From the NCBI RefSeq assembly GCF_036323395.1, contig NZ_AP028907.1:1230001-1262000 (forward strand): a stretch of DNA of 32,000 nt, written 5' to 3'. Position numbers and translations under genes: made by a program. This document shows positions 1-32,000 of this stretch, one piece after another; the first letter of the stretch is position 1, and each line of letters starts with the position of its first letter. Under the pieces are notes generated by a model. The model was not told the origin of the DNA and did no database searches. It saw only the letters and a list, made by a program, of their open reading frames with translations. Source of the DNA: Pyrodictium abyssi. GTDB taxonomy: Archaea; Thermoproteota; Thermoprotei_A; Sulfolobales; Pyrodictiaceae.

Positions 1-270
1 GCTCCACTTCTCCACTCTGCTGAGGAGCTGTAGCAGCTTCTCCTCAGCCTCCCTGTACCGGCCTCTCCTCTCGAGGCCCCAGACTATGCGCCTGAGCAGC
101 CACGCCGTGATCAGCATCCTTAGCTTCGCGAGGAGCCGGGGCAACAGCTACCCCGAGAGAGACAGCTACAGAACAACCCAGTATTTCTATCCAGGGGGCT
201 ACGCTCTCCGCCGACCGCGGAAAGGCCCGGGGCAGACGGGGCGGAAAACAACGGGCGGCGCTGGTGTGTT

Positions 271-1818: not shown

Positions 1819-1975
1819 CCCTCCAGAACCTGCTGCAGCAGGACGACGCTTCCACGTGGTGAGGGCTTGATGCCCCTCCTCCGGGATATTCCGCGTTTCG
1901 TCGCGCGGCTTGGCCAGGGGTAGCATAATTTAGGGGGAATACCGGGCTCGGCCTAGCACCGAGGCCTGGAGTGCC

Positions 1976-4913: not shown

Positions 4914-5954
4914 GTGCATCCTCTTAGGCTGTGGGGCTCTAGCGTGGTAGTCAGGTTCGTGGACCGTGTTGCCGAGCTATCCGTCCTCCAGGGGTTTGCT
5001 GAGCGCGGTGCTGGTGTGCCCATCTACCTCTACGGCCCAGAGGGCTGTGGCAAGACGCGGCTGCTGCGTGAGCTTGTCTCGAGGCTAGAGGGGGCGCGGG
5101 ACTACCTCGTAGTCTATGTTGACGCCCTGGAGGAGAGGGACCCTGGCAGGGCTGTCCGGGGCTCGGAGGAGCTGCGGCGCCTACTGCTCGACGCAGTCCG
5201 CGGTGCCGCCGGGGGCCCGCTTGGCGTGCTCCTGGCCTACGCTGTTACCCGCGTCGTGTCTAGCCTTGAGCGGCGGCTCGTCGAGGGCAGACACGTAGTC
5301 GTCATAGTGGATGACGTGGCCCGGCCGCTGGGCCTCGAGAGGCTCGAGGCTTATGTGAAGAGCCTTCTCCGGCTAGTAGAGTACGACCTAGCCGAGCTGT
5401 ATCCCGCCTCGGTGCTAGTCGTAGCCTCTACGAGCGAGGGGCTAAGCCTGGAGAGGCTACGGCGCCACCCTACGTGGGTTTCGCTACGGCTTCTCTGGGG
5501 CCTGCCCCGCAGTGCTTTCCACGAGCTCGCCACGGGCCTCGGGGCCCCGGATACGGGTGTTGCCGAGGAGGCGTGGAGGCTTACTGGGGGCAACCCCCGG
5601 GCCCTAATACAGATAGCTACGGTCTACATGTGGGACATCGACGCCTGGCTGAGGGGCCTCGACGCCAGCCTAGCCGCGCCCCTGGTAGCAGAGGCGAGGG
5701 CACGTGGGCTGCTGCACGCCCTCCAGCGGGTAGTCGCGGACCCAGACAGCATAGTAGCCGAGGCGGACCCGGCTCTCCAGCAGGTGGCCCGGCTCCTTCT
5801 CAAGAACAACCTCATCGTGTACAAGGCGGTAGCAACGCTGACGGGGGAAACCATACCGGCTGACCCCGGGCTGGGGATTGGCAGCTACTACGCGTGGCAG
5901 CTACCGGCGTACCGCGAGCTGTTGAGGAGGCGGCTCGGGGAAGCCGGGGGCTAG
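4914..5954 (+). CDS. Archaeal P-loop NTPase (Arch_ATPase-like), paralogue A
   Basis: FVDRVAEL N-terminal block, Walker A YGPEGCGKTRLL, Walker B HVVVIVDDV. About 45% identical by eye to ORF 29866..30879. GTG start at 4914, though GTG 4944 just before FVDR is equally plausible. Its TAG stop overlaps the purM stop in the palindrome CTAG (5951-5954). Confidence 0.75.
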   Translation: MHPLRLWGSSVVVRFVDRVAELSVLQGFAERGAGVPIYLYGPEGCGKTRLLRELVSRLEGARDYLVVYVDALEERDPGRAVRGSEELRRLLLDAVRGAAGGPLGVLLAYAVTRVVSSLERRLVEGRHVVVIVDDVARPLGLERLEAYVKSLLRLVEYDLAELYPASVLVVASTSEGLSLERLRRHPTWVSLRLLWGLPRSAFHELATGLGAPDTGVAEEAWRLTGGNPRALIQIATVYMWDIDAWLRGLDASLAAPLVAEARARGLLHALQRVVADPDSIVAEADPALQQVARLLLKNNLIVYKAVATLTGETIPADPGLGIGSYYAWQLPAYRELLRRRLGEAGG

Positions 5955-8723: not shown

Positions 8724-9122
8724 CTAGACTGCGAGCACGCGGCGGCGATAGGACCGGTGCATCTCCTCATAAGCTTCCCGGTAGTCCAGCCACTCTACTA
8801 GAGCCCTCCACCGGTCCTCCACAAAAGCCTGGTAGTCGCCACCCACAAAGGCACCCCTCACAAGCGCCTCGTAGAGCAGCGGCAGACTAGCTCTTTCAAC
8901 CAATACCACCTCCACACGCCTACCTGTTTCAGCCTCGACAGCCTCTGCTAGCCTACCAGCCTCCACCGGAGAAAAGCCGCGGACAGCAAGATCCACGTCA
9001 CTAAGCCCACTACACCGCCCTTCAGCAGCACTACCGAACACCACGACATAGCCACCAGGCCCTAGCCCAAACCCCTCTACAACACGCCTAACCACCCGGA
9101 GAAGCTTCCTACAGCCAACCAT
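8724..9122 (-). CDS. mntA: MNT minimal nucleotidyltransferase antitoxin
   Basis: The GSx(n)DxD motif is present as VVVFGSAAEGRCSGLSDVDLAV. The track ORF runs to 9386, but its upstream 88 aa are Cys/Gly/Arg-rich and non-native. The start is therefore placed at ATG 9122 (132 aa, normal for MNT). Confidence 0.8.
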   Translation of the reverse strand: MVGCRKLLRVVRRVVEGFGLGPGGYVVVFGSAAEGRCSGLSDVDLAVRGFSPVEAGRLAEAVEAETGRRVEVVLVERASLPLLYEALVRGAFVGGDYQAFVEDRWRALVEWLDYREAYEEMHRSYRRRVLAV

Positions 9123-9611
9123 CCTGCCACCACACAGCAGGCCAGGAGCCCTACGACCACAGCGTACCAGGTGCCCTCCACAGCCTATAAGCACAAAGCC
9201 CCGAGCACCACGAATAGCCATCAGTCCTCCGAACTCCTCGCCGATACCCTTGGCGCCACGCAGCAGCCTAGACACCGCCTCCTCGCGGAGATGCAGCAGT
9301 AAGACGCCCCAGAGCCCCTCTCTCGGAGACCCGGATAAAGTGCAAGACGATATATAGAAGAACGTGCAGATAAAGCTTGCCAGCAAGGAGAGATATCTAT
9401 AAGGTAGACGGTATGTATCAATCTACACGGTGAAGATTCCTAGTGAGATTTATTTAGTCCACCTTTCCCCGATATAGACGTCTACTTAATCTTCCTACTT
9501 GCAACAATCACTACAATTATAGCAGGTAATATCCTTCACCTGCAAAAGAGGAGGCAACAGCAACTCCTTTGGATAGAAGCCATGCACAAATGAATCTCGT
9601 CATACCTGCAA

Positions 9612-14528: not shown

Positions 14529-15749
14529 TTAGGTGTGGCTGCGTGGGAGTATCTTTAGCTTCTCTGCTGCCCGTCTGGCCTTGGCGCGGGCTTCCTCGGG
14601 TGTCTCGGCACGGGCTAGTACTACTGCCATGCGGCGGCCCCGGTAGGTTCTGGGCTTGCCGAACCAGCGCAGCTCTACGCCCGGCTCGGCTAGGGCCTGG
14701 TAGGCGCCGCTGAGCACGGGGTACCACTCGCCGTCGAGGTTTGTGTATACTGCTATGCTGGCTGCGGGGGTTAGGACACTGGGCCTGGGGACGGGTAGGC
14801 CTACTGCTGCGCGTACGTGGGCTTGGAACTCGCTGATGTCCTGGCTGGCTAGGGTGACTAGGCCTGTGTCGTGGGGCCTGGGCGCCACTTCGCTGAAGAG
14901 GAGCCGGCCGTCCCTAGTCTGTAGGAGCTCGACGCCGAATACCCCGACGCCGCCTAGGGCCTCTGCTACCCGTGCTGCTATCTCGCGGGCCCGGTGGAGC
15001 AGGCCCGTGGGCCTGGTGCTGGGCTGCCAGGACTCTATGTAGTGGTACTCGCCGTACCTCCAGTGCTCGACCGGCTCCATAGCGTCTGTTCTCGCCTTGT
15101 CGCCGTCGAGCCACCGGTAGGCGAGGACAGTGTACTCTGTCTCTAGCTCAACGTACTCCTCCACTATGACGCGGCGGCTCGCACCCCGGGCGTGGCTTAT
15201 CGACTCCATGTAGGCCTTCTCGACAGCCTGGCGGCTAGGCTCCGCGACCTTTACGTGGCCGTGGCCGCTACTGCTCATCTCGGGCTTGATTAGGCAGGGG
15301 TAGCCGACCTTCTCGCAGGCCTCGTAGGCCTCCTCAGGCGTCTCGGCGAAGGCATACCTTGTGGTGGGTAGGCCTAGCTCCTCGGCCGCCCAGCGCCGCA
15401 GCTCTATACGGTTCATCGCTATCCTGACTGCCCGCGCGTTGGGCACCACGTGGTAGCCCTTCTCCTCGAGCCTCTCCAGCGCCTCGGTGTTGATGGCCTC
15501 TATCTCGGGTACCACCGCTACCGGGTTCTCGCGCTCCACGATGGCCTCCACTGCGCCCGCGTCGAGCATGTCCACGACGTAGCGGCGGTGGGCTACGTGC
15601 ATCGCTGGGGCCCAGTCGTAGCGGTCGACAACGACCACCTCTAGGCCGAGCCGCTGCGCCTCTATCGCTACCTCCTTGCCTAGCTCGCCGCCGCCTAGTA
15701 GGAGCACCTTGGCTGCTCCGGGGCCCAGAGGGCTGGGTATGGAGTCCAT
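14529..15749 (-). CDS. purT: Formate-dependent phosphoribosylglycinamide formyltransferase (GAR transformylase 2)
   Basis: KVLLLGGGELGKEVAIEAQRLGLEVVVVDRY, ATP-grasp blocks and PEMSSSGHGHV. The track ORF extends to 16001, but that part overlaps purD and is Arg/Pro-rich. The start is therefore placed at ATG 15749 (MDSIPSPLGPGAAKVLLLGGG), giving 406 aa. Confidence 0.9.
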   Translation of the reverse strand: MDSIPSPLGPGAAKVLLLGGGELGKEVAIEAQRLGLEVVVVDRYDWAPAMHVAHRRYVVDMLDAGAVEAIVERENPVAVVPEIEAINTEALERLEEKGYHVVPNARAVRIAMNRIELRRWAAEELGLPTTRYAFAETPEEAYEACEKVGYPCLIKPEMSSSGHGHVKVAEPSRQAVEKAYMESISHARGASRRVIVEEYVELETEYTVLAYRWLDGDKARTDAMEPVEHWRYGEYHYIESWQPSTRPTGLLHRAREIAARVAEALGGVGVFGVELLQTRDGRLLFSEVAPRPHDTGLVTLASQDISEFQAHVRAAVGLPVPRPSVLTPAASIAVYTNLDGEWYPVLSGAYQALAEPGVELRWFGKPRTYRGRRMAVVLARAETPEEARAKARRAAEKLKILPRSHT

Positions 15750-15844
15750 CCTAGGGGGTATACCCACCGCTATGCACCCCGCCAGGGGCCGGCCTTGGAT
15801 CATACAGAGGGCACATACATGGGGTCTGAAAGAAACGTGCAGGC

Positions 15845-17350
15845 CTAGCTGTAGTCGTGGACTATTAGGCCGCGGCCGGGTATCCAGTCGTAGATCCTGG
15901 TCTCGCCTCGGGCGCGGCGCCTCGTGTAGGCCTTCCTCACGCGCTCGGCTAGCGCCACGCGGCTCTCTATGTGGCTCCTCTGGCCTATGTCGCGGCGCCA
16001 TACGAGGGGGTGGCCGTCGAGAAGCCTCACCGCCTCCGCCGCGCGCTGGGCCCTGGCGGCTGCGTCCTCGTAGCCCTGGCTGCTCCAGCAGACTATCTCC
16101 ACGAGACGGGAGCCCGTGGAGACGAGGCCGCGGGGGCCCTGGTCTACCCCGGCGTAGAGTAGCCTGCAGCCCTGGCGCTCGACAGCGTCTCTGTCTACGG
16201 CCACCGGGTGACCCCGGGCTAGGGCCCGGTTGTTGGGGTAGCCTGCGGGTGCTAGCGCGATGTTGACCACGTAGACGTCGTTGTCTACCTCTAGCCGGTA
16301 GCCGGCTAGCCTGCCCGAGGCTGCGCGGTCCAGCAGCTCTAGGAAGTCGCTCCGCAGCATGGGGAGCAGGTTGCCGGTCTCGGGGTCGCCAAACCTGGCG
16401 TAGTACTCTATGACCGTGGGGCCCCAGAGGCTGGTGAGCATCATCTGGCCGCTAATGGTGCCGCGGTAGGGCTCCCCGGTCTCCCGCCGGAGGGCCTCCA
16501 CGGTCTTCTCGAGTACCTCGACTGTCTCCCGGTACTCGCCGAGCTCGAGGAAGGGAGGCACAACGCCGGGCCCGCTGACCGCGCCCATTCCCCCAGTCTC
16601 GGGGCCGAGGTCCCAGCTGAAGAGGTGGGGGTGGTCCTGTACCACTGGCAGCGGCACCAGCGTGGAGCCGTCAGTGACCGCCATCACGGTGTACTCTACG
16701 CCCTCAACCCTCTCCTCGACTATAACCGAGTAGTCTATGTCGCTGTACTTCTCCCGCACCTCGCGGGCCAGCTTCTCCGCGTAGCTCCCCGCCGCCCCGC
16801 GCACCGCTGCCCCAAGGTGCTCCATGGGCTCCGCGAAGACGCGTACGCCGCGGCCGCCAGCCTGCCGGGCAGGCTTGACCACCACGTCGCCCGCTGCGCG
16901 GGCGTACTCCGAGGCCTCCTCGGGGTCCGTGAAGACCTGGTAGCGTAGCCGCCCCGGGATACGGTAGCGCCACATGAGCCCGCGGGCATAGGCCTTGTCC
17001 TTCTCTATCCGGGCCTGTGCCCTGCCGGGGCCGTAGACTGTGAAGCCCTTCTCCCGGAGCGCGTCCGCGACGCCCGCGAAGAGGGGCTCCTCGGGGCCTA
17101 TGACCACGAGGTCTGGGCTCCAGTCCTCGGCCGCCTGGAGGGCGTCGCCGGGGCTAGTGGGCTTGCCGGGGTAGAACCTTCCCCCGGTGTTCTCGGCGGC
17201 TTCTACTAGGCCTGGGTTCCTCTTGTCGCTTAGCACCGCTATGCGGGGCTCCATGCTGCTGCCCGCTATGAGCAGTGCGAGGGCGTGTTCGCGGCCGCCG
17301 CTGCCCAGTAGGAGCACCTTCACTCCCGGCTCACCTCCTCCAGCATGCAC
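15845..17350 (-). CDS. purD: Phosphoribosylamine-glycine ligase (GAR synthetase)
   Basis: VKVLLLGSGGREHALA N-terminal block and ATP-grasp core. GTG at 17350 opens the frame. GTG 17323 overlaps the TGA stop of the upstream purF paralogue as GTGA and is the more likely coupled start. Confidence 0.9.
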   Translation of the reverse strand: MHAGGGEPGVKVLLLGSGGREHALALLIAGSSMEPRIAVLSDKRNPGLVEAAENTGGRFYPGKPTSPGDALQAAEDWSPDLVVIGPEEPLFAGVADALREKGFTVYGPGRAQARIEKDKAYARGLMWRYRIPGRLRYQVFTDPEEASEYARAAGDVVVKPARQAGGRGVRVFAEPMEHLGAAVRGAAGSYAEKLAREVREKYSDIDYSVIVEERVEGVEYTVMAVTDGSTLVPLPVVQDHPHLFSWDLGPETGGMGAVSGPGVVPPFLELGEYRETVEVLEKTVEALRRETGEPYRGTISGQMMLTSLWGPTVIEYYARFGDPETGNLLPMLRSDFLELLDRAASGRLAGYRLEVDNDVYVVNIALAPAGYPNNRALARGHPVAVDRDAVERQGCRLLYAGVDQGPRGLVSTGSRLVEIVCWSSQGYEDAAARAQRAAEAVRLLDGHPLVWRRDIGQRSHIESRVALAERVRKAYTRRRARGETRIYDWIPGRGLIVHDYS

Positions 17351-18543
17351 GCCGTGCAGGGGTCTATGCCGTGGCTCTTGAGGTAGGAGACGGCCTCGCC
17401 TAGGGGGAGCCAGGCTAGGCTATCCACGTCGAGGACGCGCTCTATCGCATCGTCGCTTAGCTGGCGGGCTATCAGGCTGCCTGGCTCTAGGAGCTGGACG
17501 CGGTGGGGGCACGTGGCTACTATCTTGGGGCTCGAGACTGCTACGTGCAGCTCGCGGGGGGCCTGGCTACGCCACAGCCTGTGGATGAAGGTCTTCAGCG
17601 TGAGCCCGGTAACCACGCTATCGTCGACTACCGCTACCCGTCTCCCCTCGAAGACGCCGGGCACGGGGTTGAACTTGAGGCTGAGCATCATCAGCCTCTC
17701 CTCCAGCGACGCCTGGGCTATGGCGGTTCTCACACGGCCTATCGTGGAGACTAGCGCCAGCTCCATGGGGGCCTGCTTCTCCTCGGCGTAGCCTAGGGCG
17801 TAGGGGAGCGCGGTCTCCGGTACCCCTACCACGACGTCTACCTCCACGGGGTGGCTGCGGGCGAGCCGCCGGCCCATCTCCCGGCGGAACAGGTACACGT
17901 TCACGCCGTCCACGAGGCTGTCTGGGCGCGCCAGGTAGATGTACTCGAAGAGCGAGGTGGCGCGGCGGCCCCTGCCGGCGCTGTAGGTGTCGAGCGTGTA
18001 GCGGTCCCCGTAGACAGCCTCGCCCGGCTCGAGGTCGCGGCGGGGCTCCCCGCCCATCAGGGTTATGGGCGCTGTCTCCGTGGCGGCGTAGACTGCGTCG
18101 AACCCGTAGCCGCCTAGGCTGAGGGGCCGTACCCCGCTCCTCCCCCGGTACAGCACGTAGCCGCCGCTGCCTGTCAGCGCCGCTACCGTGCAGCCGTCGA
18201 ACCTGGTGCTAGAGGCCAGCGCCTCGGCTGCCTCGCGGGGGCTCCCAGCGGCCTCCACCAGCCTCAGTGCCTCCGCTGCGCTGCATGCACCGTCCACGGC
18301 CACGGCTGCGCTGCGTGAGGCGGCGAGGCTCCCAGTGGGCTCCACTGCCGCTAGTACCGCGCTGCCCTCGGGTAGGCTCCAGCCGTTGCTCCACGGGTTG
18401 AGCCTTCCCTGCTCTAGCCCGTCGCCGCGTAGAACCGCGTAGGAGACCCTTGGCCCGCGGTGCCGCAGCCCCATGACGCCGTAGCGGGCGTAGAGGCCGG
18501 CTGGCTGGTCTGGCTCGTAGAAGTAGACTAGCAGTACGCCCAT
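17320..18543 (-). CDS. Amidophosphoribosyltransferase paralogue with a degenerate glutaminase domain
   Basis: Collinear with PurF. It retains FEYIYLARPDS and the PRPP loop RRVAVVDDSVVTGLTLK. It begins MGVLLVYF, so there is no Cys after Met, and it lacks the NGN oxyanion block. Start placed at ATG 18543, 10 nt after the purF stop; the longer track ORF would overlap purF by 98 nt. Confidence 0.8.
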   Translation of the reverse strand: MGVLLVYFYEPDQPAGLYARYGVMGLRHRGPRVSYAVLRGDGLEQGRLNPWSNGWSLPEGSAVLAAVEPTGSLAASRSAAVAVDGACSAAEALRLVEAAGSPREAAEALASSTRFDGCTVAALTGSGGYVLYRGRSGVRPLSLGGYGFDAVYAATETAPITLMGGEPRRDLEPGEAVYGDRYTLDTYSAGRGRRATSLFEYIYLARPDSLVDGVNVYLFRREMGRRLARSHPVEVDVVVGVPETALPYALGYAEEKQAPMELALVSTIGRVRTAIAQASLEERLMMLSLKFNPVPGVFEGRRVAVVDDSVVTGLTLKTFIHRLWRSQAPRELHVAVSSPKIVATCPHRVQLLEPGSLIARQLSDDAIERVLDVDSLAWLPLGEAVSYLKSHGIDPCTACMLEEVSRE

Positions 18544-18553
18544 GCCGTATGGC

Positions 18554-19909
18554 TCACCTCCTGCCCTCTGTGAACACCTTCTCGAGACGGGGTACGTCCA
18601 GGGGGAGGGGGTAGGCTCCGCCGAAGCATCCGAGGCAGAGGCGGCGGCCAACAGCCTCCTCTAGGTCCCTCAGGCCGAGGTACAGTATGCTGTCAACGCC
18701 CAGGGCCCTGGCGACCTCGTCTACGCTCCTACCGTGGGCTACTAGCTCGCCGCGGCTTGGCATGTCTACGCCGAGGAAGCAGGGCATGACCACGGGCGGC
18801 GAGGCGACGCGTAGATGCACCTCGCGGGCCCCTGAGCGGCGGAGGATGTGGGCTAGCCACCTGCTGGTGGCGCCGCGGACTACGCTGTCGTCGACGAGGA
18901 TTATTCTGCGGCCCCAGGTCGTCGAGCGTATCGGGTTGAACTTGCGCTTGAGCCTCCCGTTCCTCTCGCCTGGGGGCGCTATGAAGGCGCGGCCAGCGTA
19001 CCGGTTGCGGTATAGGACCTCGGTGTAGGGGAGTCCCCGCTCCATGGCGTAGCCTATGGCCGCGCTCCGGCCGCTATCCGGGACCGGCGCCACCAGGTCG
19101 GCCTCCACTGTGTCGCGGCGGGCGAGCCGCCGGCCCATCTCGAGCCTGGCCGCGTGGGCCTCGACGCCCTCGAAGACGCTGTCGGGCCTGAGGAAGTATA
19201 CGTACTCGAACGCGCATGGCCGGGGCTCGTGCCCGGGGGCTAGCCCGGTCTCGACGCAGTCCTTGGGGGAGCCGTTGCAGTGGAGCATCCTCCCCGCGCC
19301 TACCTCTCTCCAGGGGAGCCCCATCGAGTCTAGCGCGGCCGTCTCGCTGGCCACGGCGGCGTAGCCGTCGCCCACCGCGTAGGCGAGAGGCCTGACCCCG
19401 TAGGGGTCCCGGGCGGCTGCTAGCTCGCCGCGGGCCGTGACTGCTACGAGGCTGTAGGCCCCGCGTAGGAGGCGCGCTGCCTCCCTGAGGGCGTCGGCGA
19501 GGCTCCCCTGCTCCAGGTAGAGGGCCTCCACGAGGTCTGCTACGAGCTGGGCATCCCAGGTGTAGCGGCGGCCTAGCAGCTCCCGGCCCAGCTCCCGGTA
19601 GTTGACAATGTTCCCGTTATAGGCTATGTAGACTAGCTTCTTGCTGCCAGCCACCGGCTGGTAGTGCTCGCCGCCGTACCCGCCGCTCGTGCTGTACCTC
19701 ACATGCCCAATAGCAGCCCAGGCGCCGGAGGCGGCCGTGGGGAGGCGTATAGCCTCCTGCACGAGCCCGGGGCCGCCGACGAGCCTTACGCCGCCGCCGG
19801 CTAGGAACGCTATCCCCGCGGCCTCCTGGCCCCGGTGCTGGAGCTCCAAGAGCAGCTCGTAGACCGCCGAGGCCGCGTCCCTGCCCAGCCAAGCTGCTAC
19901 GCCGCACAC
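18554..19909 (-). CDS. purF: Amidophosphoribosyltransferase (glutamine PRPP amidotransferase)
   Basis: Ntn-type MCGVAAW N-terminus, LQHRGQEAAGIA, HVRYSTSG and YNGNIVNY. PRPP loop RRIILVDDSVVRGATS. Fe-S Cys positions RPCAFEYVYF, MPCFLGVDMP and CLGCF. Confidence 0.92.
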   Translation of the reverse strand: MCGVAAWLGRDAASAVYELLLELQHRGQEAAGIAFLAGGGVRLVGGPGLVQEAIRLPTAASGAWAAIGHVRYSTSGGYGGEHYQPVAGSKKLVYIAYNGNIVNYRELGRELLGRRYTWDAQLVADLVEALYLEQGSLADALREAARLLRGAYSLVAVTARGELAAARDPYGVRPLAYAVGDGYAAVASETAALDSMGLPWREVGAGRMLHCNGSPKDCVETGLAPGHEPRPCAFEYVYFLRPDSVFEGVEAHAARLEMGRRLARRDTVEADLVAPVPDSGRSAAIGYAMERGLPYTEVLYRNRYAGRAFIAPPGERNGRLKRKFNPIRSTTWGRRIILVDDSVVRGATSRWLAHILRRSGAREVHLRVASPPVVMPCFLGVDMPSRGELVAHGRSVDEVARALGVDSILYLGLRDLEEAVGRRLCLGCFGGAYPLPLDVPRLEKVFTEGRR

Positions 19910-19919
19910 GGTGCCAGCT

Positions 19920-22103
19920 TCACCCCTCTCTCACCAGCTTCTCCAGAGTAGTGGCGTAGGCCTCCGAGAGCCCGTCCAGGGGGACCCTGGCCAGGGTTCT
20001 CCTGCCCGAGGCCAGCTCCACGTAGCTGCCGCCTGGCTCGCCTACGACGCGGGCCCACACGCCTGCCTCCTCTGCGCGGCGCAGAACCTCGCCAACGCTG
20101 TCGCGGGGCACCTCGAGGATGTAGCGGCCCGGTGTCTCCGAGAACCCCGCCTCGAGCGGGCTCCGGCACGCTGGGCAGAGGGCAGCGAGGTCGAGCCTTG
20201 CGCCGACGCCACCCGCCACGGCCATCCGGGCCACGGCTGCCGCTGCGCCGCCCAGCCCGACGGAGTGCGACGCGAGCACAAGCTCGTCCTCGATGAGCCT
20301 CCTCACCAGCTTGGCGGCTGCTGCCTCCTCCCTTGGCCGGGGCTCGGGCGGGAGCCCCGCTGGCTCGCCTAGGAGGAGCTCGGCCGCCTCGCTAGCGCCT
20401 AGCTCTGGCCGCGTCTCCCCCACAGCTACGAGTAGACCTTCCCCGGTCAGGGCTAGGCCCGTTGCCCGGGTGACGTCGCTTATCCTGCCGACGACGAGCA
20501 CTGAGGCAACCGGGTCGACCATATGGCCGTGCTCGTCCTCGTTGTAGAGGCTCACGTTGCCCCCGATGAAGGGTATGCCGAGGCCGCGGGCCATCCAGGC
20601 TAGGCCCTCTACTATGCGCTTGAAGTACCAGAACTGCCGCGGCTTCTCCGGGTTACCAGCGTTAATGTTGTCGAGCGCTGCCAGGGGCTCACCGCCCACA
20701 GCTGCTACGTGCCGGTAGGCCTCGGCTAGGCTGAGCGCAGCGCCCCGGAACGGGTCCTGCCGGGTGTAGCGCGGGTTCCCGGCGAGCGCTGCCACCACTC
20801 CGCGGCTCGTACCGTCGCGGAGCCATAGCACAGCCGCGTCGGCATAGCCCGGCGGCGCGGCTGTGCGGCCCTGGACGCCCCAGTCGTACTGCTCGTAGAC
20901 CCAGGCCTTCCCCGCCACCCGGGGCGAGGAGACCACGCGCTCTAGCAGCCAGCCCAGCTCCTCCTCGGCTAGGCTGAGGCCCGGCAGCTCACGGGGGGCC
21001 GGCGGGGGCTCCGCCTTCCTCTCCACGGGCGGCGCCGACGCGGCGAGCCCGACGGGGAGGTCTACCACTACTCTGCCTCGGTAGACGGCGCGGAGCCTCC
21101 CCGTGTCGTCGAAGTAGCCTATGACGCTCGCCTCGACACCGTAGCGGTCTAGCAGCCGGAGCAGCTCGCCCAGCTTACCCCTCTGCGGCACCAGTAGCAT
21201 GCGCTCCTGGCTCTCGGAGACCAGTATCTCCGCCGGCTCCATGTCTGGCTCGCGGAGGTGGACACGGTCGAGGTGCACCACGGCGCCGACGCCGCTGGAT
21301 GCAGCGGTCTCGGAGACCGCCGTGGCTAGGCCCCCGCCTCCTAGGTCCTTCACGTGGCGGAGTAGCTTCCTCTCGAAGGCCTCCGTGAGTGCGTCTATTA
21401 GCAGCTTCTCGAGGAACGGGTTCCCGACCTGGACGGCCGCTATGTCCTCCTCGCGGCTGCCCAGGGGGCGGCTAGCAAAGCTGCTCCCGAGCATACCGTC
21501 CCTACCGGTGGAGTTGCCCGCGAGGACCATCACGTCCCCGGGCTCTACGCGGCCTGGGAGCAGGTCCCCGGGCCGCGTGACCCCTATGCACGCCACGTTG
21601 ACCAGGGGCTGTCTCTCGTAGCTAGCGTGGAACCATGTCTCGCCCGCCACCGTGGGGACTCCTATCCTGTTCCCGTAGTCGCTTATACCCCGCACTATGC
21701 CCTTGGCGAGCCACCGGGAGACTGGTGTGCGGAGGCTCCCCAGGTAGAGGGCGTCGAGCAGCGCTATCGGCTGGGCGCCTAGGCTCAGCACGTCGCGGAC
21801 AATACCCCCTACCCCGGTCGCAGCCCCGTTGTAGGGGTCCACAGCCGAGGGATGGTTGTGGCTCTCTATACGGGCGACCACCGCCACGTCGTCGAACAGC
21901 TTTACCGCGCCCGCGTCGCGGCCAGGGCCCACGAGCACCCATGGCGCCTCAGTGGGCAGCATTCTTAGGAGCCGCCGGGTGCTCTTGTAGCTGCAGTGCT
22001 CGCTCCACGTGGCCTCGAAGAGGGCCAGCTCTTCCCGTGTCGGCTCGCGGCCTAGCCGGCGGCGTATCTCGCTCAGCTCGCTCTCGGAGAGCGGCATCAC
22101 CAT
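19920..22103 (-). CDS. purL: Phosphoribosylformylglycinamidine synthase subunit II
   Basis: 727 aa. EATWSEHCSYKST, ESHNHPSAVDPYNGAATGVGG and duplicated PurM-like domains. Overlaps the purQ stop by 7 nt. Confidence 0.95.
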   Translation of the reverse strand: MVMPLSESELSEIRRRLGREPTREELALFEATWSEHCSYKSTRRLLRMLPTEAPWVLVGPGRDAGAVKLFDDVAVVARIESHNHPSAVDPYNGAATGVGGIVRDVLSLGAQPIALLDALYLGSLRTPVSRWLAKGIVRGISDYGNRIGVPTVAGETWFHASYERQPLVNVACIGVTRPGDLLPGRVEPGDVMVLAGNSTGRDGMLGSSFASRPLGSREEDIAAVQVGNPFLEKLLIDALTEAFERKLLRHVKDLGGGGLATAVSETAASSGVGAVVHLDRVHLREPDMEPAEILVSESQERMLLVPQRGKLGELLRLLDRYGVEASVIGYFDDTGRLRAVYRGRVVVDLPVGLAASAPPVERKAEPPPAPRELPGLSLAEEELGWLLERVVSSPRVAGKAWVYEQYDWGVQGRTAAPPGYADAAVLWLRDGTSRGVVAALAGNPRYTRQDPFRGAALSLAEAYRHVAAVGGEPLAALDNINAGNPEKPRQFWYFKRIVEGLAWMARGLGIPFIGGNVSLYNEDEHGHMVDPVASVLVVGRISDVTRATGLALTGEGLLVAVGETRPELGASEAAELLLGEPAGLPPEPRPREEAAAAKLVRRLIEDELVLASHSVGLGGAAAAVARMAVAGGVGARLDLAALCPACRSPLEAGFSETPGRYILEVPRDSVGEVLRRAEEAGVWARVVGEPGGSYVELASGRRTLARVPLDGLSEAYATTLEKLVREG

Positions 22104-22774
22104 CCCCTGCGCAGCGCTTCGCCTATCGACGTGAAGAACGGGTGGCCCCCGGGCCTGCGGCCGCGGGGGACCTGGAGTGGGCTCGCCGCTCGCTCCGGGT
22201 GCGGCATTAGGCCGAGAACGGCTCCGTCCTCGGAGGCCAGGCCGGCGACGTCTGCGACGCTGCCGTTAGGGTTCTCGAGGTACTCTAGCCAGGGCCTGGA
22301 CCGGAGTAGCTCCCCGGGCGCGGGGTGGTAGAAGCGCCCCTCAGCATGGGCCACCGGCATGTCTAGCACAGCGCCGGGCTCCACGTGGAGTAGCCAGGGG
22401 CCGCGCGGGCTGTGCACCCGGACCCGGAGCCACCTGGCCACGAAGCGGCCGCCCTCGTTGGGTAGGAGGGCGCCGGGGAGTACGCCCGCCTCCACGAGGA
22501 CCTGGAACCCGTTGCATATCCCGAGGATAGGGGCGCCGTTCTCGGCCGCCTCGCGGAGCTGCCTGGCCGCGGGGCTCCAGGAGGCTAGGAGCCCAGCGCG
22601 CCCGTAGTCCCCGTAGCTGAAGCCTCCCGGCACAACTGTAGCGTCCCAGTCCCTCCAGCGGTACTCGGTGTGCCACACTACGCGCGCCTCTACGCCGGCC
22701 ACCTCGCGCAGCATGTAGGCTGTCTCCTGGTCGCAGTTAGTGCCGGGGAACCGGAGCACAGCGACTCTAGGCAA
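22097..22774 (-). CDS. purQ: Phosphoribosylformylglycinamidine synthase subunit I (glutaminase)
   Basis: VAVLRFPGTNCDQE, catalytic Cys in GICNGFQVL, and MPHPER. Confidence 0.95.
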   Translation of the reverse strand: MPRVAVLRFPGTNCDQETAYMLREVAGVEARVVWHTEYRWRDWDATVVPGGFSYGDYGRAGLLASWSPAARQLREAAENGAPILGICNGFQVLVEAGVLPGALLPNEGGRFVARWLRVRVHSPRGPWLLHVEPGAVLDMPVAHAEGRFYHPAPGELLRSRPWLEYLENPNGSVADVAGLASEDGAVLGLMPHPERAASPLQVPRGRRPGGHPFFTSIGEALRRGW

Positions 22775-23030
22775 GAGTGATCACCAGGAGCGTGTGGACC
22801 GCGGGGTTGAAGAGCCGGGTCTCGCGGGCCATTTCCTCTACGAGCCTCTCCGCCTCCTCCCTCGACTCAGCCTCGACCTCTACTATGAACGCCTTCCCGG
22901 CGCGGATCCCCTGGACCCAGGTGTAGCCTAGCCTTCTCAGCTCGTCTGCCAGCGTCTCGCCCTCAGGGTCCCGGGCCGACGGCTTGTAGGCTACTATTGC
23001 CAGCACACGGTGCCGGGTCAACCGGTGCAC
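22767..23030 (-). CDS. purS: Phosphoribosylformylglycinamidine synthase subunit PurS
   Basis: 87 aa, with DPEGETLADELRRLGY...IRAGKAFIVEVEA matching the PurS pattern. It sits between purC and purQ with 13-nt and 8-nt overlaps. Confidence 0.85.
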   Translation of the reverse strand: MHRLTRHRVLAIVAYKPSARDPEGETLADELRRLGYTWVQGIRAGKAFIVEVEAESREEAERLVEEMARETRLFNPAVHTLLVITLA

Positions 23031-23746
23031 CTCCTCTCGGGCTCGCCGGCTAGACGGGCTAGCTCCCTGTAGGCCTCCAGCAGGGCCTCGACGCCGCCAC
23101 CGCGCCTGTAGACCTCCTTGTCCAGGTGCCTACCCCCGCTGTCAACCAGCCTCATCGTGTCGCCTGTGACCTCGTCGACCACCACGAAGCCCGTGGCAGA
23201 CCGAGCCACCTCGATCTTAAGGTCTACTAGCCGGAGGCCCCGCCGGCGCCAGAACATCTCGAGGACGCTGCTTACCCGGAGGGCTAGGCTCTGGATGTCC
23301 CAGAGCTCCCGCCACGATAGGAGCCCGGCCTCGACAGCGTCCTCGGGGAGAACGAGCGGGTCGCCCCTCGCGTCGTCCTTGAGGTGCAGCTCCACCAGGG
23401 GCCGGAAGAGCCTCTCCATGGGCTTTAGGAGCGGCATCCTGCGAAGGAGCGAGCCATAGGCATAGTTCCTCACTATCACCTCGAGGGGGATGACCTCGTG
23501 CCTCCTAGCGAGGAGCCTGGAGCCGCCCATGTAGCACACATAGTGTGTCGGCACACCGTGCTCCTCTAGCAGCTCGAACATCCGGGCAGAGAGCCTGGCT
23601 GCTAGCTCGCCTTTGCCCGGCGCCGTGTCGCGGCGCTTGCCGTCGAACGCTGTGACCTCGTCCTTGAACTCGAGTACCACCAGGCCATTGCCCGCGTCGA
23701 GGACCCGCTTCGCCTTGCCCTCGTAGAGTAGCTCACCCGTGCGCAG
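23018..23746 (-). CDS. purC: SAICAR synthetase; the 5' end is uncertain because there is no canonical start codon
   Basis: The track ORF starts at GTG 23680 (MVLEFKDEVTAFDGKRRD). The same frame is open upstream and encodes the conserved PurC N-terminus LRTGELLYEGKAKRVLDAGNGL. The only start-like codon there is CTG at 23746, which would give a canonical length of 242 aa. Confidence 0.85.
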   Translation of the reverse strand: MRTGELLYEGKAKRVLDAGNGLVVLEFKDEVTAFDGKRRDTAPGKGELAARLSARMFELLEEHGVPTHYVCYMGGSRLLARRHEVIPLEVIVRNYAYGSLLRRMPLLKPMERLFRPLVELHLKDDARGDPLVLPEDAVEAGLLSWRELWDIQSLALRVSSVLEMFWRRRGLRLVDLKIEVARSATGFVVVDEVTGDTMRLVDSGGRHLDKEVYRRGGGVEALLEAYRELARLAGEPERRCTG

Positions 23747-24639: not shown

Positions 24640-25076
24640 CTATTCTGTGTCCGCCCTAGCGCCTTGCAGCCATGCGCTGGTGCCTACTGCTATGTCTCTC
24701 GCCTTTGCCAGTATTTCTTTGTCGCTTGTCAATAGCTTCGCCCCGTGTAGCCTCGCGTAGTAGACGTATGCCGCGTCGTAGGCTGTTAGGCCTAGCTGCT
24801 CTGCTAGCTTGCTAATCGCCTCCAGGTCTTCTGGCTTGATGCGCAATACCGCCAGGTGCCCGGCGAGCCTGGATACAGCAGCGGCTAGCCGGTGGGGCTC
24901 CTGTACGAGCCCTCTACGCGCCTCTATGACGGCGGCGTTGGCTGCCTCGTACAACGTTAGGTCGAGTACCGCTGCCTCTTCCTCGAGCAGCTTCTCGGCG
25001 ACCATGCATCGCTCACAGCGTCGCGGTACAGCAGCTTAGCGAGAGGATACAGGGCGGATGCATCGAGTATTATCAA
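24640..25076 (-). pseudogene. vapC: PIN-domain VapC-type toxin with one frameshift
   Basis: N-terminus (TTG)IILDASALYPLAKLLY is in the frame of ORF 24957..25310. The rest, AEKLLEEEAAVLDLTLYEAANAAV...GLTAYDAAYVYYARLHGAKLLTSDKEI, is in ORF 24640..25005. The break lies near 25005-25040. The TTG start overlaps the corrected vapB stop as TTGA (25073-25076). Confidence 0.75.
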
Positions 25077-25310
25077 GCCGTGGCCCTCCCTCGGCGGGAA
25101 GCTTTGACCGCCTCTACCCAGTCTTCCACGGTGAGATCCCCGCCAGCAGCGGCTAGTTCTCTCAGCGCTTCTGCTATCCTCTTCTTCCTCTCCTCTATGA
25201 CATGCGCGGCGTAGGGACTCCTCTACGACGCGGCGGATATCTATGCCTAGGCGCTCGGCCTCCTCCTTGAGCTTGCGGGGTACGCGGACAGAGACCACCA
25301 CGGTGGACAA
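25073..25310 (-). pseudogene. vapB: Ribbon-helix-helix VapB-type antitoxin with one frameshift
   Basis: TTG start. MSTVVVSVRVPRKLKEEAERLGIDIRRVVEESLRRA is a typical RHH strand plus helices. After about 25203 the plausible continuation VIEERKKRIAEALRELAAAGGDLTVEDWVEAVKASRRGRATA(stop 25073-25075) is in another frame. The span is 3n+1 nt. Confidence 0.65.
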
Positions 25311-29865: not shown

Positions 29866-30879
29866 GTGGCGGTGTACCGGGGGCTGGGGGGCTGGCTGTT
29901 CTCCTTGCTCCCGCGGTTCGTGGATCGTGTCGAGGAGCTGCGTAGGCTTGAGGCCTACGCGCTGGAGGGGTACTACCCGGTACTCTACCTCTACGGGCCC
30001 GAGGGCTGCGGCAAGACCCGGCTCCTCCGGGAGCTCCACCAGGTGCTGAAGCAGCGCGGCGACGTGGTAGCGGTCTACGTGGATGCTCAGAGCACGTCGG
30101 GGCCCTGGGAGGCTGTGGAGGCCCCTCCGGAGCTGGCCCGGCTCCTCGCGGAGGCTGCTGCGGAGTATGCTGGGCCCCCGGGCCGGGCGGCTGCGCTGGC
30201 TCTGCTCCGCGTCCTCGGCCGGGTCCGGGAGCGGCTCGTCCGCGGCAAGCACGTCGTGGTGCTCGTGGACGATGTGGCGCGCCCCCTGGGGCTAGAGAGG
30301 GTAGAGGCCTACACGAAGAGCCTCTTAGACCTCGTGGAGAGGCTCCAGGCCCAGGGCGCTGCGAGCGTGCTAGCCCTGGCGACTACGAGCGAGGCGGCGA
30401 GCCGCAGCATCTTGGCGAGGCACAGCCACGCCTCGCTAGCCCAGCTCTGGAACCTGGGCCCCGAGGCCTTCGAGGAGCTACTAGAGGTCCTCAGCGCGCC
30501 CCGCCACGTGCGGGAGCAGGCATGGAGGCTGCTGGGCGGCAACCCCCGGCTAGCCCTAGCCCTCCGTGCGAGAGGCTGGAGGGCTGAGAGGCTCATAGAG
30601 GACACGTATCCCCGTGTACGCGCCCTCCTCGAGGAGCTCCCCAGGAGCCTCCTCCGGGGCCTAGAGGAGGCCGTAGAGGACCCGGACGCCCTGAGGGAGA
30701 ACCAGGAGCTACGCCGACACCTCGTCGAGGCGAACCTCGCCACGCCGGTGGAGAGGCCATGCCTAGGCTACACGCCCCCGCCCGACCCCGAGCAGGGGGT
30801 GGGCAGGAGCTACGTCTGGCAGACACCGCTATACCGGATACTCGCCAAAAAGTACCTAGAAGAAGCGGGGAAGCCATGA
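29866..30879 (+). CDS. Archaeal P-loop NTPase (Arch_ATPase-like), paralogue B
   Basis: FVDRVEEL, Walker A YGPEGCGKTRLLREL, Walker B HVVVLVDDVARPLGLERVEAY, and AWRLLGGNPR. Collinear with ORF 4914..5954. Divergent from the RNA ligase pseudogene, with a 183-nt spacer. Confidence 0.75.
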   Translation: MAVYRGLGGWLFSLLPRFVDRVEELRRLEAYALEGYYPVLYLYGPEGCGKTRLLRELHQVLKQRGDVVAVYVDAQSTSGPWEAVEAPPELARLLAEAAAEYAGPPGRAAALALLRVLGRVRERLVRGKHVVVLVDDVARPLGLERVEAYTKSLLDLVERLQAQGAASVLALATTSEAASRSILARHSHASLAQLWNLGPEAFEELLEVLSAPRHVREQAWRLLGGNPRLALALRARGWRAERLIEDTYPRVRALLEELPRSLLRGLEEAVEDPDALRENQELRRHLVEANLATPVERPCLGYTPPPDPEQGVGRSYVWQTPLYRILAKKYLEEAGKP

Positions 30880-31096: not shown

Positions 31097-31491
31097 CTAG
31101 CATGTAAGCTTGTTTATGAGCTGCTTGGCCTCCTGCAGGAAGCCCTCTAGGCTGGGTTCCTCTAGGGGCTCTACTCTGCCGCCTACATGCTTGTAGTGGG
31201 GAAACGTGGCGCCTCAGCGTGGCGGGGCGCATTGTTATACCGTAGCGCATCTACATGCACACTATCCTTATCGCCGCTACCATACCCCGTTATGACTAGC
31301 TGGTACCCATAGCCTATTAGGCGGCCGCTTCTCCAGACTTCTCTGGCCTCGAGCAGCGCTCGCCTATCCACGCGGAGCCTCAGCCGTAGGACGAATGTTT
31401 CTCTGCCAGCCCTTGTCTTCACGCCGGGTAGCCGCGCTTCCGGGAAATACCTCCTCACCAGGCCTACTATGTACTCTATCCTCGGCTTCAT
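31097..31491 (-). pseudogene. DUF6516 / TumE-like putative toxin with one frameshift
   Basis: ORF 31183..31491 ends ...YGYQLVITGYG...DALRYNNAPRHAEAPRFPTTSM. Shifting frame near 31195 gives FPHYKHVGGRVEPLEEPSLEGFLQEAKQLINKLTC(stop 31097-31099). This restores the family hallmark RYDNAPHH...FPHHKH as I recall it. The span is 3n+2 nt. Confidence 0.6.
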
Positions 31492-31496
31492 GCTGC

Positions 31497-31808
31497 TTAC
31501 CTCAGCCTGGAAAGCACCTTCTCTATATTCTCTACCTCCTCAACAATCTCTTCCCGGGCCAACGCTAGCCCGTGCCACTCTACGGCATCCAGGTCGGCTT
31601 CTTCGGGAAGCCTCCACTCCCCTCTAGCCCTGGCACACTCCTCGTACATCCTCATAAACTCCCTAGTCGGCATACCATACCGCTCCTCATACTCCCGTAG
31701 CTCCGCCTCGACCCTCTGAAGCCTCTTCCTTAGCCTCTCCAGCTCCCGCTCAAGAGCAGCAATCACTGATCCTATCTCCCTCCTCTCTAGCCTAACCTCA
31801 ATAGCCAC
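31497..31808 (-). CDS. Small coiled-coil protein, upstream partner of the DUF6516-like gene (putative antitoxin)
   Basis: 103 aa. Heptad region LERELERLRKRLQRVEAELREYEERYGMPTREFMRMYE, followed by an acidic W-containing tail. Its stop lies 5 nt before the downstream gene start, so the two probably form an operon. Confidence 0.55.
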   Translation of the reverse strand: MAIEVRLERREIGSVIAALERELERLRKRLQRVEAELREYEERYGMPTREFMRMYEECARARGEWRLPEEADLDAVEWHGLALAREEIVEEVENIEKVLSRLR

Positions 31809-32000
31809 TAAGGAGCCCCAGGAGCACTAGAATAACGGCTACCAGGGCTAAATAGCGCCACTACCCAGGATACTGTAGAGGATGGCCATACACCGTGGAG
31901 GCTCTAGACCCCGTAGATAGCGTGAAAACAGTACTGTGTGTCAGGGCCCGCAGCCCCGTTCCGAAGGACGGGGGAAGTTAAGGCGGCCATCATGGCAGCC

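What the first reader, a model, noticed from the sequence alone, without database searches (positions are those of the whole stretch)
31097..31808. Coiled-coil protein plus DUF6516/TumE-like protein: a poorly characterised TA-like pair, with the toxin frameshifted
Two genes lie 5 nt apart. The downstream one regains the hallmark RYxNAPxH...FPHxKH only after a frame correction near 31195. The mechanism of this family is, to my knowledge, not established. The upstream partner is not a classical DNA-binding antitoxin but a 103-aa coiled coil with a YGMPTREFMRMYE block. The pair may represent a distinct variant of the family, with a non-HTH partner.
Basis: partly seen in the sequence, partly recalled or inferred. 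Interest (0 to 1): 0.5.

Follow-up and report, generated by a model that had tools for sequence, protein, structure and literature searches.

The report
Broken TumA–TumE toxin–antitoxin pair
This is an ordinary member of the already described TumA–TumE toxin–antitoxin family in the archaeon Pyrodictium abyssi, with an intact antitoxin gene and a toxin gene broken by a one-base deletion; the partner is the family's usual antitoxin, not a new kind.

Summary
On the minus strand, a 103-aa gene (31808-31497) lies 5 nt upstream of a TumE/DUF6516 gene. That gene reads 31491-31183 in one frame and continues in the -1 frame to the stop at 31097-31099.

The repaired 131-aa protein passes Pfam TumE (PF20126, 24.8 bits, cut-off 23.4). 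It is 52% identical to an intact metagenomic orthologue, and its model has the published TumE fold.

The "distinct non-HTH partner" idea fails. A profile built from upstream partners of other TumE genes scores the window partner at 42.7 bits (E 7e-12). Half of those partners match NCBIfam TumA and PADLOC PDC-M44A. In all, 155 of 166 TumE genes examined carry such a partner upstream.

TumE-TumA was validated in 2023 as a translation-blocking toxin-antitoxin system; its chemistry is still unproven.

The frameshift is most likely real decay:
- three near-invariant motif residues are also changed;
- a second toxin gene in the window is broken;
- about fifteen housekeeping genes are intact.

A sequencing error cannot be excluded. 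Programmed frameshifting is unlikely.

Verdict: new, degenerate member of a known kind; low interest.

The parts
31497..31808 (-). tumA-like antitoxin gene, intact (103 aa, GTG start, TAA stop). Core motif EYEERYGMPTREF (residues 39-51), then LPEEADLDAVEW with the family-invariant Trp78.
   Evidence: ORF listed. A profile of partners of other TumE genes scores it 42.7 bits, E 7e-12, against 12.5 bits for the best of 2000 shuffles. An exhaustive search finds a 53%-identical, full-length orthologue, P0104, at E 7e-28. P0104 lies directly upstream of an intact TumE gene. AF2 model: three helices, pLDDT 87. Orthologues start at the equivalent position, which supports the GTG start.
31499..31503 (-). 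Shine-Dalgarno-like GAGGT inside the end of tumA, 7 nt before the tumE ATG. Suggests translational coupling within one operon.
   Evidence: Read directly from the sequence. Its function is inferred, not tested.
31183..31491 (-). tumE 5' part as annotated: a 102-aa ORF (P0001) ending at a premature TAG (31185-31183). Codons 1 to about 95 are authentic TumE; the last 5-9 codons, depending on where the base was lost, are out of frame.
   Evidence: identical to a P. abyssi 'hypothetical protein'. TumE profile positions 35-97, 24.6 bits. No Pfam hit on its own.
31205..31218 (-). Site of the 1-nt loss: 14 nt lie between the His codon of NAPRH and the Phe codon of FPH, where homologues have 15 nt. 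The loss is most likely at 31206-31212.
   Evidence: The spacer is 5 residues in 53 of 54 homologues. The best repairs are AEVAT (score 6.41) or AEAPT (4.90). DNA comparison with the intact orthologue in L162 agrees.
31097..31210 (-). tumE 3' part in the -1 frame: (A)TFPHYKHVGGRVEPLEEPSLEGFLQEAKQLINKLTC, with stop TAG at 31099-31097. It encodes the FPHxKH motif, strands 6-7 and the C-terminal helix.
   Evidence: TumE profile positions 94-126, 37.1 bits, E 1.4e-9. The C-terminal stretch from FPH to KQL is about 85% identical to P0002. Secondary structure from the AF2 model.
31198..31204 (-). T_TTC_CCC, formally an X_XXY_YYZ -1 slippery heptamer in frame 0. Judged incidental, a by-product of the Phe-Pro-His codons.
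   Evidence: Sequence. A product read through the heptamer would be AEAPR-FPH, with Arg where 100 homologues have T/N/S/G and never R; it scores -0.06. The downstream RNA fold is unremarkable, z = -1.1.
31827..31856 (-). Candidate archaeal promoter region upstream of tumA. A/T-rich TATA-like elements: TATTTA at 31854-31849 and TTATTC at 31835-31830, 22-46 nt before the GTG.
   Evidence: Read from the sequence. Not tested. No inverted repeat or operator was found, and the bacterial promoter scan is not applicable.

Best explanation
The locus is a two-gene type II toxin-antitoxin module of the TumA-TumE family, also catalogued as PADLOC candidate defence system PDC-M44. It lies in Pyrodictium abyssi AV2.

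How intact relatives work.
- The upstream gene makes TumA, a small helical antitoxin. TumA binds and neutralises TumE. Whether it also represses the operon is inferred, not shown.
- The downstream gene makes TumE, a 120-130-aa alpha+beta protein carrying the RYDNAPHH and FPHHKH motifs. TumE stops protein synthesis when it is freed from TumA.
- Toxicity, neutralisation and translation arrest were shown in E. coli for gammaproteobacterial members. RNA cleavage is only the authors' suggestion.

State of the copy in this window.
- The toxin gene has lost one base at about 31206-31212. Translation therefore ends at residue 102, and the FPHxKH motif, the last two strands and the C-terminal helix are missing.
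- Three near-invariant motif residues are also replaced (D->N, H->R, H->Y).
- A 10-residue insertion follows strand 4.

The toxin is therefore most likely dead. The antitoxin gene is intact. It either persists as an orphan, possibly giving immunity to incoming TumE modules (inferred), or has not yet decayed.
For: Organism. The 102-aa ORF and the partner are identical to P. abyssi 'hypothetical proteins' on a 2,224,219-bp contig. The genome is NZ_AP028907.1.

The repaired protein is a TumE.
- Pfam PF20126: 24.8 bits against a gathering score of 23.4.
- NCBIfam TumE: E 1.5e-7.
- PADLOC PDC-M44B: E 5.9e-10.
- 52% identity (E 2e-44) to an intact 122-aa TumE in L162.
- The AF2 model (pLDDT 81, pTM 0.77) has helix, seven strands, helix. 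That is the fold published for DUF6516.

The partner is a TumA.
- A profile of 71 partners from other loci gives 42.7 bits, E 7e-12. A profile of the subgroup carrying the G-x-[ML]-G-D motif alone gives 28.6 bits. The best of 2000 shuffles scores 12.5 bits.
- 18 of 36 family members hit NF045776 TumA, best 1.2e-18. 18 of 36 hit PDC-M44A, best 7e-20.

The pairing is conserved.
- 155 of 166 TumE ORFs have such a partner upstream. Ten of the 11 exceptions sit at a contig edge.
- 74 of 82 do so in metagenome loci that were not used to build the profile, and 11 of 11 in archaeal genome loci.
- The closest partner orthologue, P0104 (53% identity), overlaps an intact TumE gene by 4 nt, inside an island of other toxin-antitoxin pairs.

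The family's function is taken from PMC10584680.

The frameshift looks like real decay.
- The window protein has N where 109 of 110 homologues have D, R where 107 of 110 have H, and Y where 110 of 110 have H.
- A second toxin gene in the window, a PIN domain at 24640-25310, is also split across frames.
- About fifteen housekeeping genes in the window, about 18 kb in all, are full length.
- Seven of 161 other TumE loci are also split across two frames.
Against: - No reads or independent assembly of P. abyssi could be examined, so a single-base assembly error is not excluded.
- The stretch after the shift is still highly conserved: its FPH-to-KQL stretch is about 85% identical to P0002. Any real mutation must therefore be recent.
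- The window partner alone does not reach the curated TumA thresholds. NF045776 gives E 0.19 and 11.9 bits against a cut-off of 100. It has no PDC-M44A hit at E <= 0.01.
- The loci used to judge motif conservation were retrieved with patterns built on those same motifs, which inflates apparent invariance at some positions.
- No member from archaea or from this clade has been tested experimentally.
- Binding of TumA to TumE or to DNA is not shown here.
Confidence: 0.65

Rival explanations
1. The frameshift is a sequencing or assembly error. In the living organism the tumA-tumE module is intact and potentially active.
For: - A single missing base with no further stops or decay downstream. The -1 frame is open to a normal stop, and its FPH-to-KQL stretch is about 85% identical to P0002.
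- The indel overlaps a GC-rich inverted repeat at 31209-31230, a context in which base-calling and polishing can fail.
- No independent data could be obtained.
Against: - About fifteen housekeeping genes (about 18 kb) in the same window are full length, while the two clear frame breaks both fall in toxin genes. Random errors would not be distributed that way.
- The best-scoring repair (AEVAT) places the lost base outside any homopolymer; the next best (AEAPT) would extend only a 2-base C run.
- The toxin also carries substitutions at three near-invariant motif residues and a 10-residue insertion. A base-calling error cannot explain these.
Confidence: 0.25
2. Programmed -1 ribosomal frameshifting at U_UUC_CCC (31204-31198) produces a small amount of full-length TumE from the two frames, dosing the toxin below the antitoxin.
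For: - The heptamer fits X_XXY_YYZ in frame 0, and slipping gives F-P-H exactly.
- The frame-0 stop follows 4 codons later.
- The -1 frame is well conserved.
Against: - The product would carry AEAPR before FPH. Arg at that position occurs in 0 of 100 homologues (T 71, N 17, S 10, G 2). The -1 frame already encodes the consensus Ala-Thr upstream of the heptamer.
- The heptamer follows automatically from the Phe-Pro-His codons; intact relatives also have TTTCCCCA.
- The downstream 88 nt fold no better than shuffles: z = -1.1, and 25 of 200 shuffles fold at least as well.
- The closest orthologues are single-frame genes.
- Other split TumE genes break at different places.
Confidence: 0.03
3. The pair is not a toxin-antitoxin system in archaea. 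The TumE-like protein would be a non-toxic nucleic-acid or metal-binding enzyme, and the helical partner its regulator or chaperone. Alternatively the pair acts mainly as an anti-virus defence system.
For: - No archaeal member has been tested.
- The biochemical activity is unknown.
- Neither protein has a solved structural relative.
- PADLOC lists the pair only as a candidate defence system, PDC-M44.
Against: - Six of six tested bacterial pairs were toxic and were neutralised by the partner.
- The architecture is that of type II modules: a small upstream gene that overlaps or abuts the downstream one.
- The intact orthologue sits among PIN/AF2212-like and DUF4258/DUF2283 pairs.
- Repeated inactivation of the downstream gene only is what one expects for a toxin.
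Confidence: 0.07

Closest known systems
TumE-TumA toxin-antitoxin superfamily (Durairaj et al., Nature 2023, PMC10584680; Pfam PF20126 TumE, formerly DUF6516; NCBIfam NF045777 TumE and NF045776 TumA)
   Same: - Same toxin domain, motifs and predicted fold: two helices on a seven-stranded sheet.
- Same gene order, with the small partner upstream on the same strand and adjacent or overlapping.
- The partner shares the [FY]E-x-[KR]YG...F...W core with TumA.
   Different: - The window copy is from a hyperthermophilic crenarchaeon; the validated members are gammaproteobacterial.
- Both proteins score far below the NCBIfam equivalog cut-offs: 31 against 90 bits, and 12 against 100 bits.
- The toxin is frameshifted, has substitutions at three near-invariant motif residues and carries a 10-residue insertion.
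- This clade's partner has LPE[DE]AD[LM]D-x-[IV]EW in place of G-x-[ML]-G-D...W.
PADLOC candidate phage-defence system PDC-M44 (components A and B)
   Same: The repaired TumE hits PDC-M44B (E 5.9e-10). Half of the partner family hits PDC-M44A (best 7e-20).
   Different: - The window partner itself does not reach E 0.01 against PDC-M44A.
- PDC-M44 is only a candidate system, and no paper in the searchable library mentions it.
Classical type II modules with ribbon-helix-helix or HTH antitoxins (RelBE, ParDE, VapBC)
   Same: - Bicistronic layout with the antitoxin first, and a translation-targeting toxin.
- Some TumA relatives carry an N-terminal extension with weak NikR/ParD ribbon-helix-helix similarity.
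   Different: - The window partner has no HTH. It has no complete ribbon-helix-helix either, only a short beta-strand-like N-terminus (MAIEVRL) before a 36-residue helix.
- The TumE fold is unrelated to RelE, ParE or PIN.
Haloarchaeal DUF6516 genes next to an HTH-domain gene (Halococcus dombrowskii plasmids, bioRxiv 10.1101/2022.08.16.504008)
   Same: An archaeal DUF6516 gene beside a small partner gene. One copy there is also broken, by an ISH3 transposase.
   Different: - The neighbour there is described as an HTH protein, not a TumA-type helical protein.
- I did not examine those sequences.

Membership tests
TumE (Pfam PF20126 / DUF6516) | Score at or above Pfam's gathering cut-off (23.4 bits) | tested here: met
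   The repaired 131-aa protein scores 24.8 bits, E 2.2e-5, covering profile positions 5-80 of 81. The annotated 102-aa ORF gets no hit.
TumE (NCBIfam NF045777, equivalog) | Score at or above the curated cut-off of 90 bits | tested here: not met
   31.4 bits, E 1.5e-7. This is a family relative, not an equivalog of the validated gammaproteobacterial TumE.
TumE | Conserved motifs R/G-Y/W-D-N-A-P-H-H, a 5-residue spacer, then F-P-H-H-K-H | tested here: inconclusive
   Both motifs and the spacing are present only after repairing the frame. Three near-invariant residues differ: N for D (1 of 110 share N), R for H (0 of 110) and Y for H (0 of 110). The homologue sample was retrieved with motif-based patterns.
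TumE | Alpha+beta fold: two helices packed on a seven-stranded antiparallel sheet | tested here: met
   AF2 model of the repaired protein: H2-15, seven strands, H115-130; pLDDT 81.4, pTM 0.77; alignment of two sequences only. It matches the published description.
TumE | Uninterrupted reading frame | tested here: not met
   Two frames are needed.
TumE | Toxic on expression and inhibits translation | not testable with these tools
   Shown only for six gammaproteobacterial members.
TumA (NCBIfam NF045776, equivalog) | Score at or above the curated cut-off of 100 bits | tested here: not met
   Window partner: 11.9 bits, E 0.19, residues 33-58 against profile positions 18-43. Relatives reach 1.2e-18.
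TumA-type partner family (as found upstream of TumE genes) | Significant match to a profile built from partners of other TumE genes, beyond what composition explains | tested here: met
   42.7 bits, E 7e-12. The best of 2000 shuffles of the same protein scores 12.5 bits. The profile search of 5.8 billion proteins returns it at E 2.8e-11, but it was in the query alignment. A single-sequence exhaustive search gives 19 relatives, best 7e-28.
TumA-TumE module | Partner immediately upstream of TumE on the same strand, and this pairing conserved in other genomes | tested here: met
   The gap here is 5 nt. 155 of 166 TumE ORFs have such a partner, 74 of 82 in independent loci. The orthologous pair in L162/L163 overlaps by 4 nt.
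TumA-TumE module | Antitoxin neutralises the toxin by direct binding | not testable with these tools
   No complex prediction or assay was available.
PADLOC PDC-M44 | Both components match the A and B models | tested here: inconclusive
   Component B is matched: E 5.9e-10. Component A is matched by 18 of 36 relatives but not by the window partner at E <= 0.01.
Programmed -1 frameshift site | Slippery heptamer, a downstream stimulatory structure, and conservation of the two-frame arrangement in relatives | tested here: not met
   The heptamer is present. The downstream structure is no better than shuffles. Relatives are single-frame genes. The slipped product would not fit the family.

The most novel reading that the evidence does not exclude
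The two-frame toxin gene is functional. Rare -1 slippage at U_UUC_CCC, or another recoding event, would yield trace amounts of full-length TumE in a hyperthermophile, with the 102-aa frame-0 product as the default. This would be a recoding-based way of keeping toxin below antitoxin.
Probability: 0.03. Interest if true: 0.6.

Novelty: new member of a known kind. Interest (0 to 1): 0.15.

Why it matters
The practical value is mainly annotation.
- Two P. abyssi 'hypothetical proteins' can be renamed. One is a TumA-type antitoxin. The other is a frameshifted TumE toxin pseudogene that the reference annotation presents as a complete 102-aa protein.

Two smaller points may interest specialists.
- In this sample, almost every TumE gene has a recognisably related TumA-type partner: 155 of 166, including every archaeal genome locus. 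The family paper instead speaks of diverse, unrelated antitoxins. My sample is biased towards TumE genes with motifs like the window's.
- TumE genes are fairly often found broken: 8 of 162 loci, counting this window. A second toxin in this window is broken too. This fits the general picture that chromosomal toxins decay while antitoxins linger.

None of this opens a new question.

Tried and rejected
1. Programmed -1 frameshifting. Rejected as unlikely: the slipped product does not fit the family, the downstream RNA is unremarkable and orthologues are single-frame genes.
2. Partner as a new, unrelated protein. The first searches suggested this: Pfam gave only coiled-coil noise and the word-index search found only the protein itself. 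It was rejected once loci were collected and a profile was built.
3. Solved-structure relatives. Nothing was found by sequence for TumE or for the TumA profile. Foldseek against PDB gave nothing for either model. No mechanistic lead came from structure.
The model therefore rests on two sequences.
5. Independent copies of the P. abyssi genes, to test whether the deletion is real. None is on record.
6. Rfam and tRNA scans of the window found nothing.
7. A search for an operator-like inverted repeat upstream of tumA found none. The sigma-70 promoter scan is not applicable to archaea.
8. Literature on the TumE mechanism after 2023, and on PDC-M44. Nothing was found in the searchable library.
9. 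The supplement of the family paper lists accession numbers of the validated TumA proteins but no sequences, so no direct comparison was possible.
10. Reconstruction of the neighbouring VapB-like antitoxin across two frames gave no Pfam hit. A second shift there stays unconfirmed.

Full report
**What is in the sequence**

Both genes lie on the minus strand. The upstream gene runs 31808-31497 and encodes 103 aa from a GTG start. Its TAA stop is followed by 5 nt (GCAGC) and then the ATG of the downstream gene at 31491.

The downstream gene reads ...LRYNNAPRHAEAPRFPTTSM* in frame 0 and stops at 31185-31183. The -1 frame carries on with GATFPHYKHVGGRVEPLEEPSLEGFLQEAKQLINKLTC* and stops at 31099-31097. 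A GAGGT inside the end of the first gene sits 7 nt before the second ATG, so the two look translationally coupled (read from the sequence; function inferred).

**Organism**

The 102-aa frame-0 product and the 103-aa partner are identical to 'hypothetical proteins' of Pyrodictium abyssi on a 2,224,219-bp contig. The complete AV2 genome is NZ_AP028907.1. The reference annotation therefore presents the truncated toxin as a complete gene.

**The downstream gene is TumE**

The repaired 131-aa protein gives these matches:
- It passes Pfam PF20126 'Toxin TumE' (formerly DUF6516) at 24.8 bits against a cut-off of 23.4. The truncated ORF hits nothing.
- It matches NCBIfam TumE at E 1.5e-7, well below the equivalog cut-off.
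- It matches PADLOC PDC-M44B at E 5.9e-10.

A profile of 91 full-length TumE proteins hits the two window frames at complementary positions: 35-97 (24.6 bits) and 94-126 (37.1 bits). The closest relatives are an intact 122-aa gene on metagenome contigs L162/L163 (52% identity, E 2e-44) and P0002 (46% by BLASTP, 44% over the alignment).

It still reaches pLDDT 81 and pTM 0.77. It shows helix 2-15, seven strands and helix 115-130, which is the fold published for the family. The truncation removes FPHxKH, strands 6-7 and the C-terminal helix.

**Where the frame breaks**

Homologues have exactly five residues between NAPxH and FPHxKH (53 of 54). The window has 14 nt there instead of 15.

In 100 homologues the residue before FPH is T, N, S or G and never R. 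The position before that is mostly P, E or A. The -1 frame already reads Ala-Thr at those two positions, whereas frame 0 reads Pro-Arg. The lost base therefore lies upstream of the Thr codon, at about 31206-31212. The best repairs are AEVAT and AEAPT. The intact orthologue in L162 reads PEIET, with ACC aligned to the window's ACG.

**Programmed frameshifting was considered**

T_TTC_CCC at 31204-31198 is formally a slippery heptamer. I judge it incidental, for four reasons:
- Its product, AEAPR-FPH, fits the family poorly: score -0.06 against 4.9-6.4 for the repairs.
- The heptamer is a by-product of the Phe-Pro-His codons, and intact relatives have it too.
- The downstream RNA folds no better than shuffles (z = -1.1).
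- Orthologues are single-frame genes.

**The partner is an ordinary TumA-type antitoxin**

Early searches made the partner look like an orphan. Pfam gave only coiled-coil noise. The word-index search found only the protein itself.

Collecting TumE loci changed the picture:
- The one close TumE relative, on L001, is preceded by a gene ending ...LREYEERYGMPTEEF....
- Scans of genome and metagenome contigs gave 160 further loci.
- In these, 155 of 166 TumE ORFs have an upstream same-strand ORF that matches one partner profile. Ten of the 11 exceptions lie at a contig edge.
- The proportion is 74 of 82 in the metagenome loci, which did not contribute to the profile. It is 11 of 11 in archaeal genome loci: Bathyarchaeota, Thermococcus, Methanoperedens and Methanophagales.

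That profile was built without the window or L001. It scores the window partner at 42.7 bits (E 7e-12), against 12.5 bits for the best of 2000 shuffles of the same protein. Composition therefore does not explain the match.

Half of a 36-member sample of the family hits NCBIfam 'antitoxin TumA' (best 1.2e-18) and PADLOC PDC-M44A (best 7e-20). The window protein alone stays sub-threshold (E 0.19). An exhaustive single-sequence search of 1.84 billion representatives finds 19 relatives. The best, P0104, is 53% identical over the full length (E 7e-28). It sits 4 nt overlapped with an intact TumE gene, in an island of PIN/AF2212-like and DUF4258/DUF2283 pairs.

**Partner structure**

The AF2 model, from a 50-sequence alignment, has pLDDT 87. 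It shows three helices (9-44, 48-62, 69-102) and a low-confidence N-terminus. There is no HTH, and Foldseek finds no solved relative.

The N-terminal MAIEVRL pattern is conserved in the subfamily. Some longer relatives show weak NikR/ParD ribbon-helix-helix similarity. DNA binding through a short N-terminal ribbon is therefore possible but unproven.

The inference that this marks a distinct variant is not: it is what TumA looks like.

**What is known about the family**

Durairaj et al. 2023 (PMC10584680) reported the following:
- Six gammaproteobacterial DUF6516 proteins arrest E. coli growth.
- The upstream partners neutralise them.
- The Allochromatium tepidum toxin reduces methionine incorporation.

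They named the system TumE-TumA. They suggested, without proof, an RNase activity, and they found no PDB relative. My searches of PDB sequences and structures up to 2026 still find none. I found no later mechanistic paper.

**Real mutation or assembly error?**

I could not reach reads or a second assembly. Three indirect arguments favour a real mutation:
- The toxin differs from near-invariant motif residues at three positions and has a 10-residue insertion.
- A second toxin in the window is also split between frames. It is a PIN domain at 24640-25310, and joining the pieces extends the PIN match from profile positions 21-117 to 1-117.
- About fifteen housekeeping genes in the window, about 18 kb in all, are full length. 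They include the M32 peptidase, the purine biosynthesis genes, two PF01637 ATPases and a radical-SAM protein.

Against this, the post-shift frame is still well conserved. The indel also overlaps a GC-rich inverted repeat. My estimates are about 0.65 for real decay, 0.25 for an error and 0.03 for recoding.

**Verdict**

This is a known toxin-antitoxin family in a new host, with the toxin probably dead and the partner typical of the family. Interest is low. The useful outputs are the re-annotation, the conserved TumA-TumE pairing seen in this sample, and the note that TumE genes are often found broken.

Noticed in passing
window 24640-25310 (- strand): A second toxin-antitoxin locus, VapBC-like, is also broken. 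The PIN ORF 24640-25005 matches Pfam PIN only from profile position 21. The missing N-terminus (GLIILDASALYPLAKLLYRD) lies in another frame, at the end of ORF 24957-25310, which starts like a ribbon-helix-helix antitoxin. Joining the pieces extends the match to profile positions 1-117. A third frame holds a VapB-C-terminus-like stretch, so the antitoxin may be shifted too; that is unconfirmed.
   Followed up: partly
L007, L009, L065, L073, L081, L157, L160: Seven of 161 other TumE loci have the toxin split over two frames. Each has a different indel, one of them in a T run (L065). Most fall within about 10 codons upstream of the RYDNAP motif. This may be a detection bias, assembly errors, or recurrent toxin inactivation.
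   Followed up: partly
window 31209-31230 (+ strand): A GC-rich inverted repeat (GCGCCTCAGCGTGGCGGGGCGC) was flagged as terminator-like on the antisense strand. It overlaps the site of the TumE indel. Such sequences are prone both to replication slippage and to sequencing error.
   Followed up: no
proteins P0009, P0018, P0022 and many others: About half of the TumA-type partners carry a precomputed Pfam label, PF27273.1. It is absent from the local Pfam copy, so I could not resolve its name. It is probably a recent Pfam entry for this antitoxin family.
   Followed up: no
L162 1199-4686 (ENA ERZ23491094; same contig family as Logan SRR13622961): The intact orthologous TumA-TumE pair sits in a dense island of small two-gene modules (DUF4258/DUF2283, AF2212-like/PIN), followed by an AAA_15/AAA_21 ATPase gene. 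There is no synteny with the P. abyssi window, which suggests the module moves on its own.
   Followed up: partly
window 4914-5954 (+) and 29866-30879 (+): Two paralogous 'archaeal ATPase' genes (PF01637), both full length. The second converges on the TumE gene and weakly matches PADLOC mad8 and STAND-type models.
   Followed up: no
window 14529-23680 (- strand): A purine biosynthesis cluster: PurT/PurK-like ATP-grasp, purD, two tandem ORFs of about 450 aa with amidophosphoribosyltransferase-type domains (one matches only the GATase domain, the other only the PRTase domain), purL, purQ and purC. All appear intact.
   Followed up: partly
window 8724-9386 (- strand): A nucleotidyltransferase (Polbeta / NTP_transf_2) of the kind found in MNT-HEPN toxin-antitoxin pairs. 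The neighbouring small ORFs were not examined.
   Followed up: no
window 44-1729 versus 271-1926 (- strand): Two overlapping ORFs of more than 550 aa lie on the same strand. Only 271-1926 is real (M32 carboxypeptidase, full profile). The other is a shadow ORF, typical of this GC-rich genome.
   Followed up: yes
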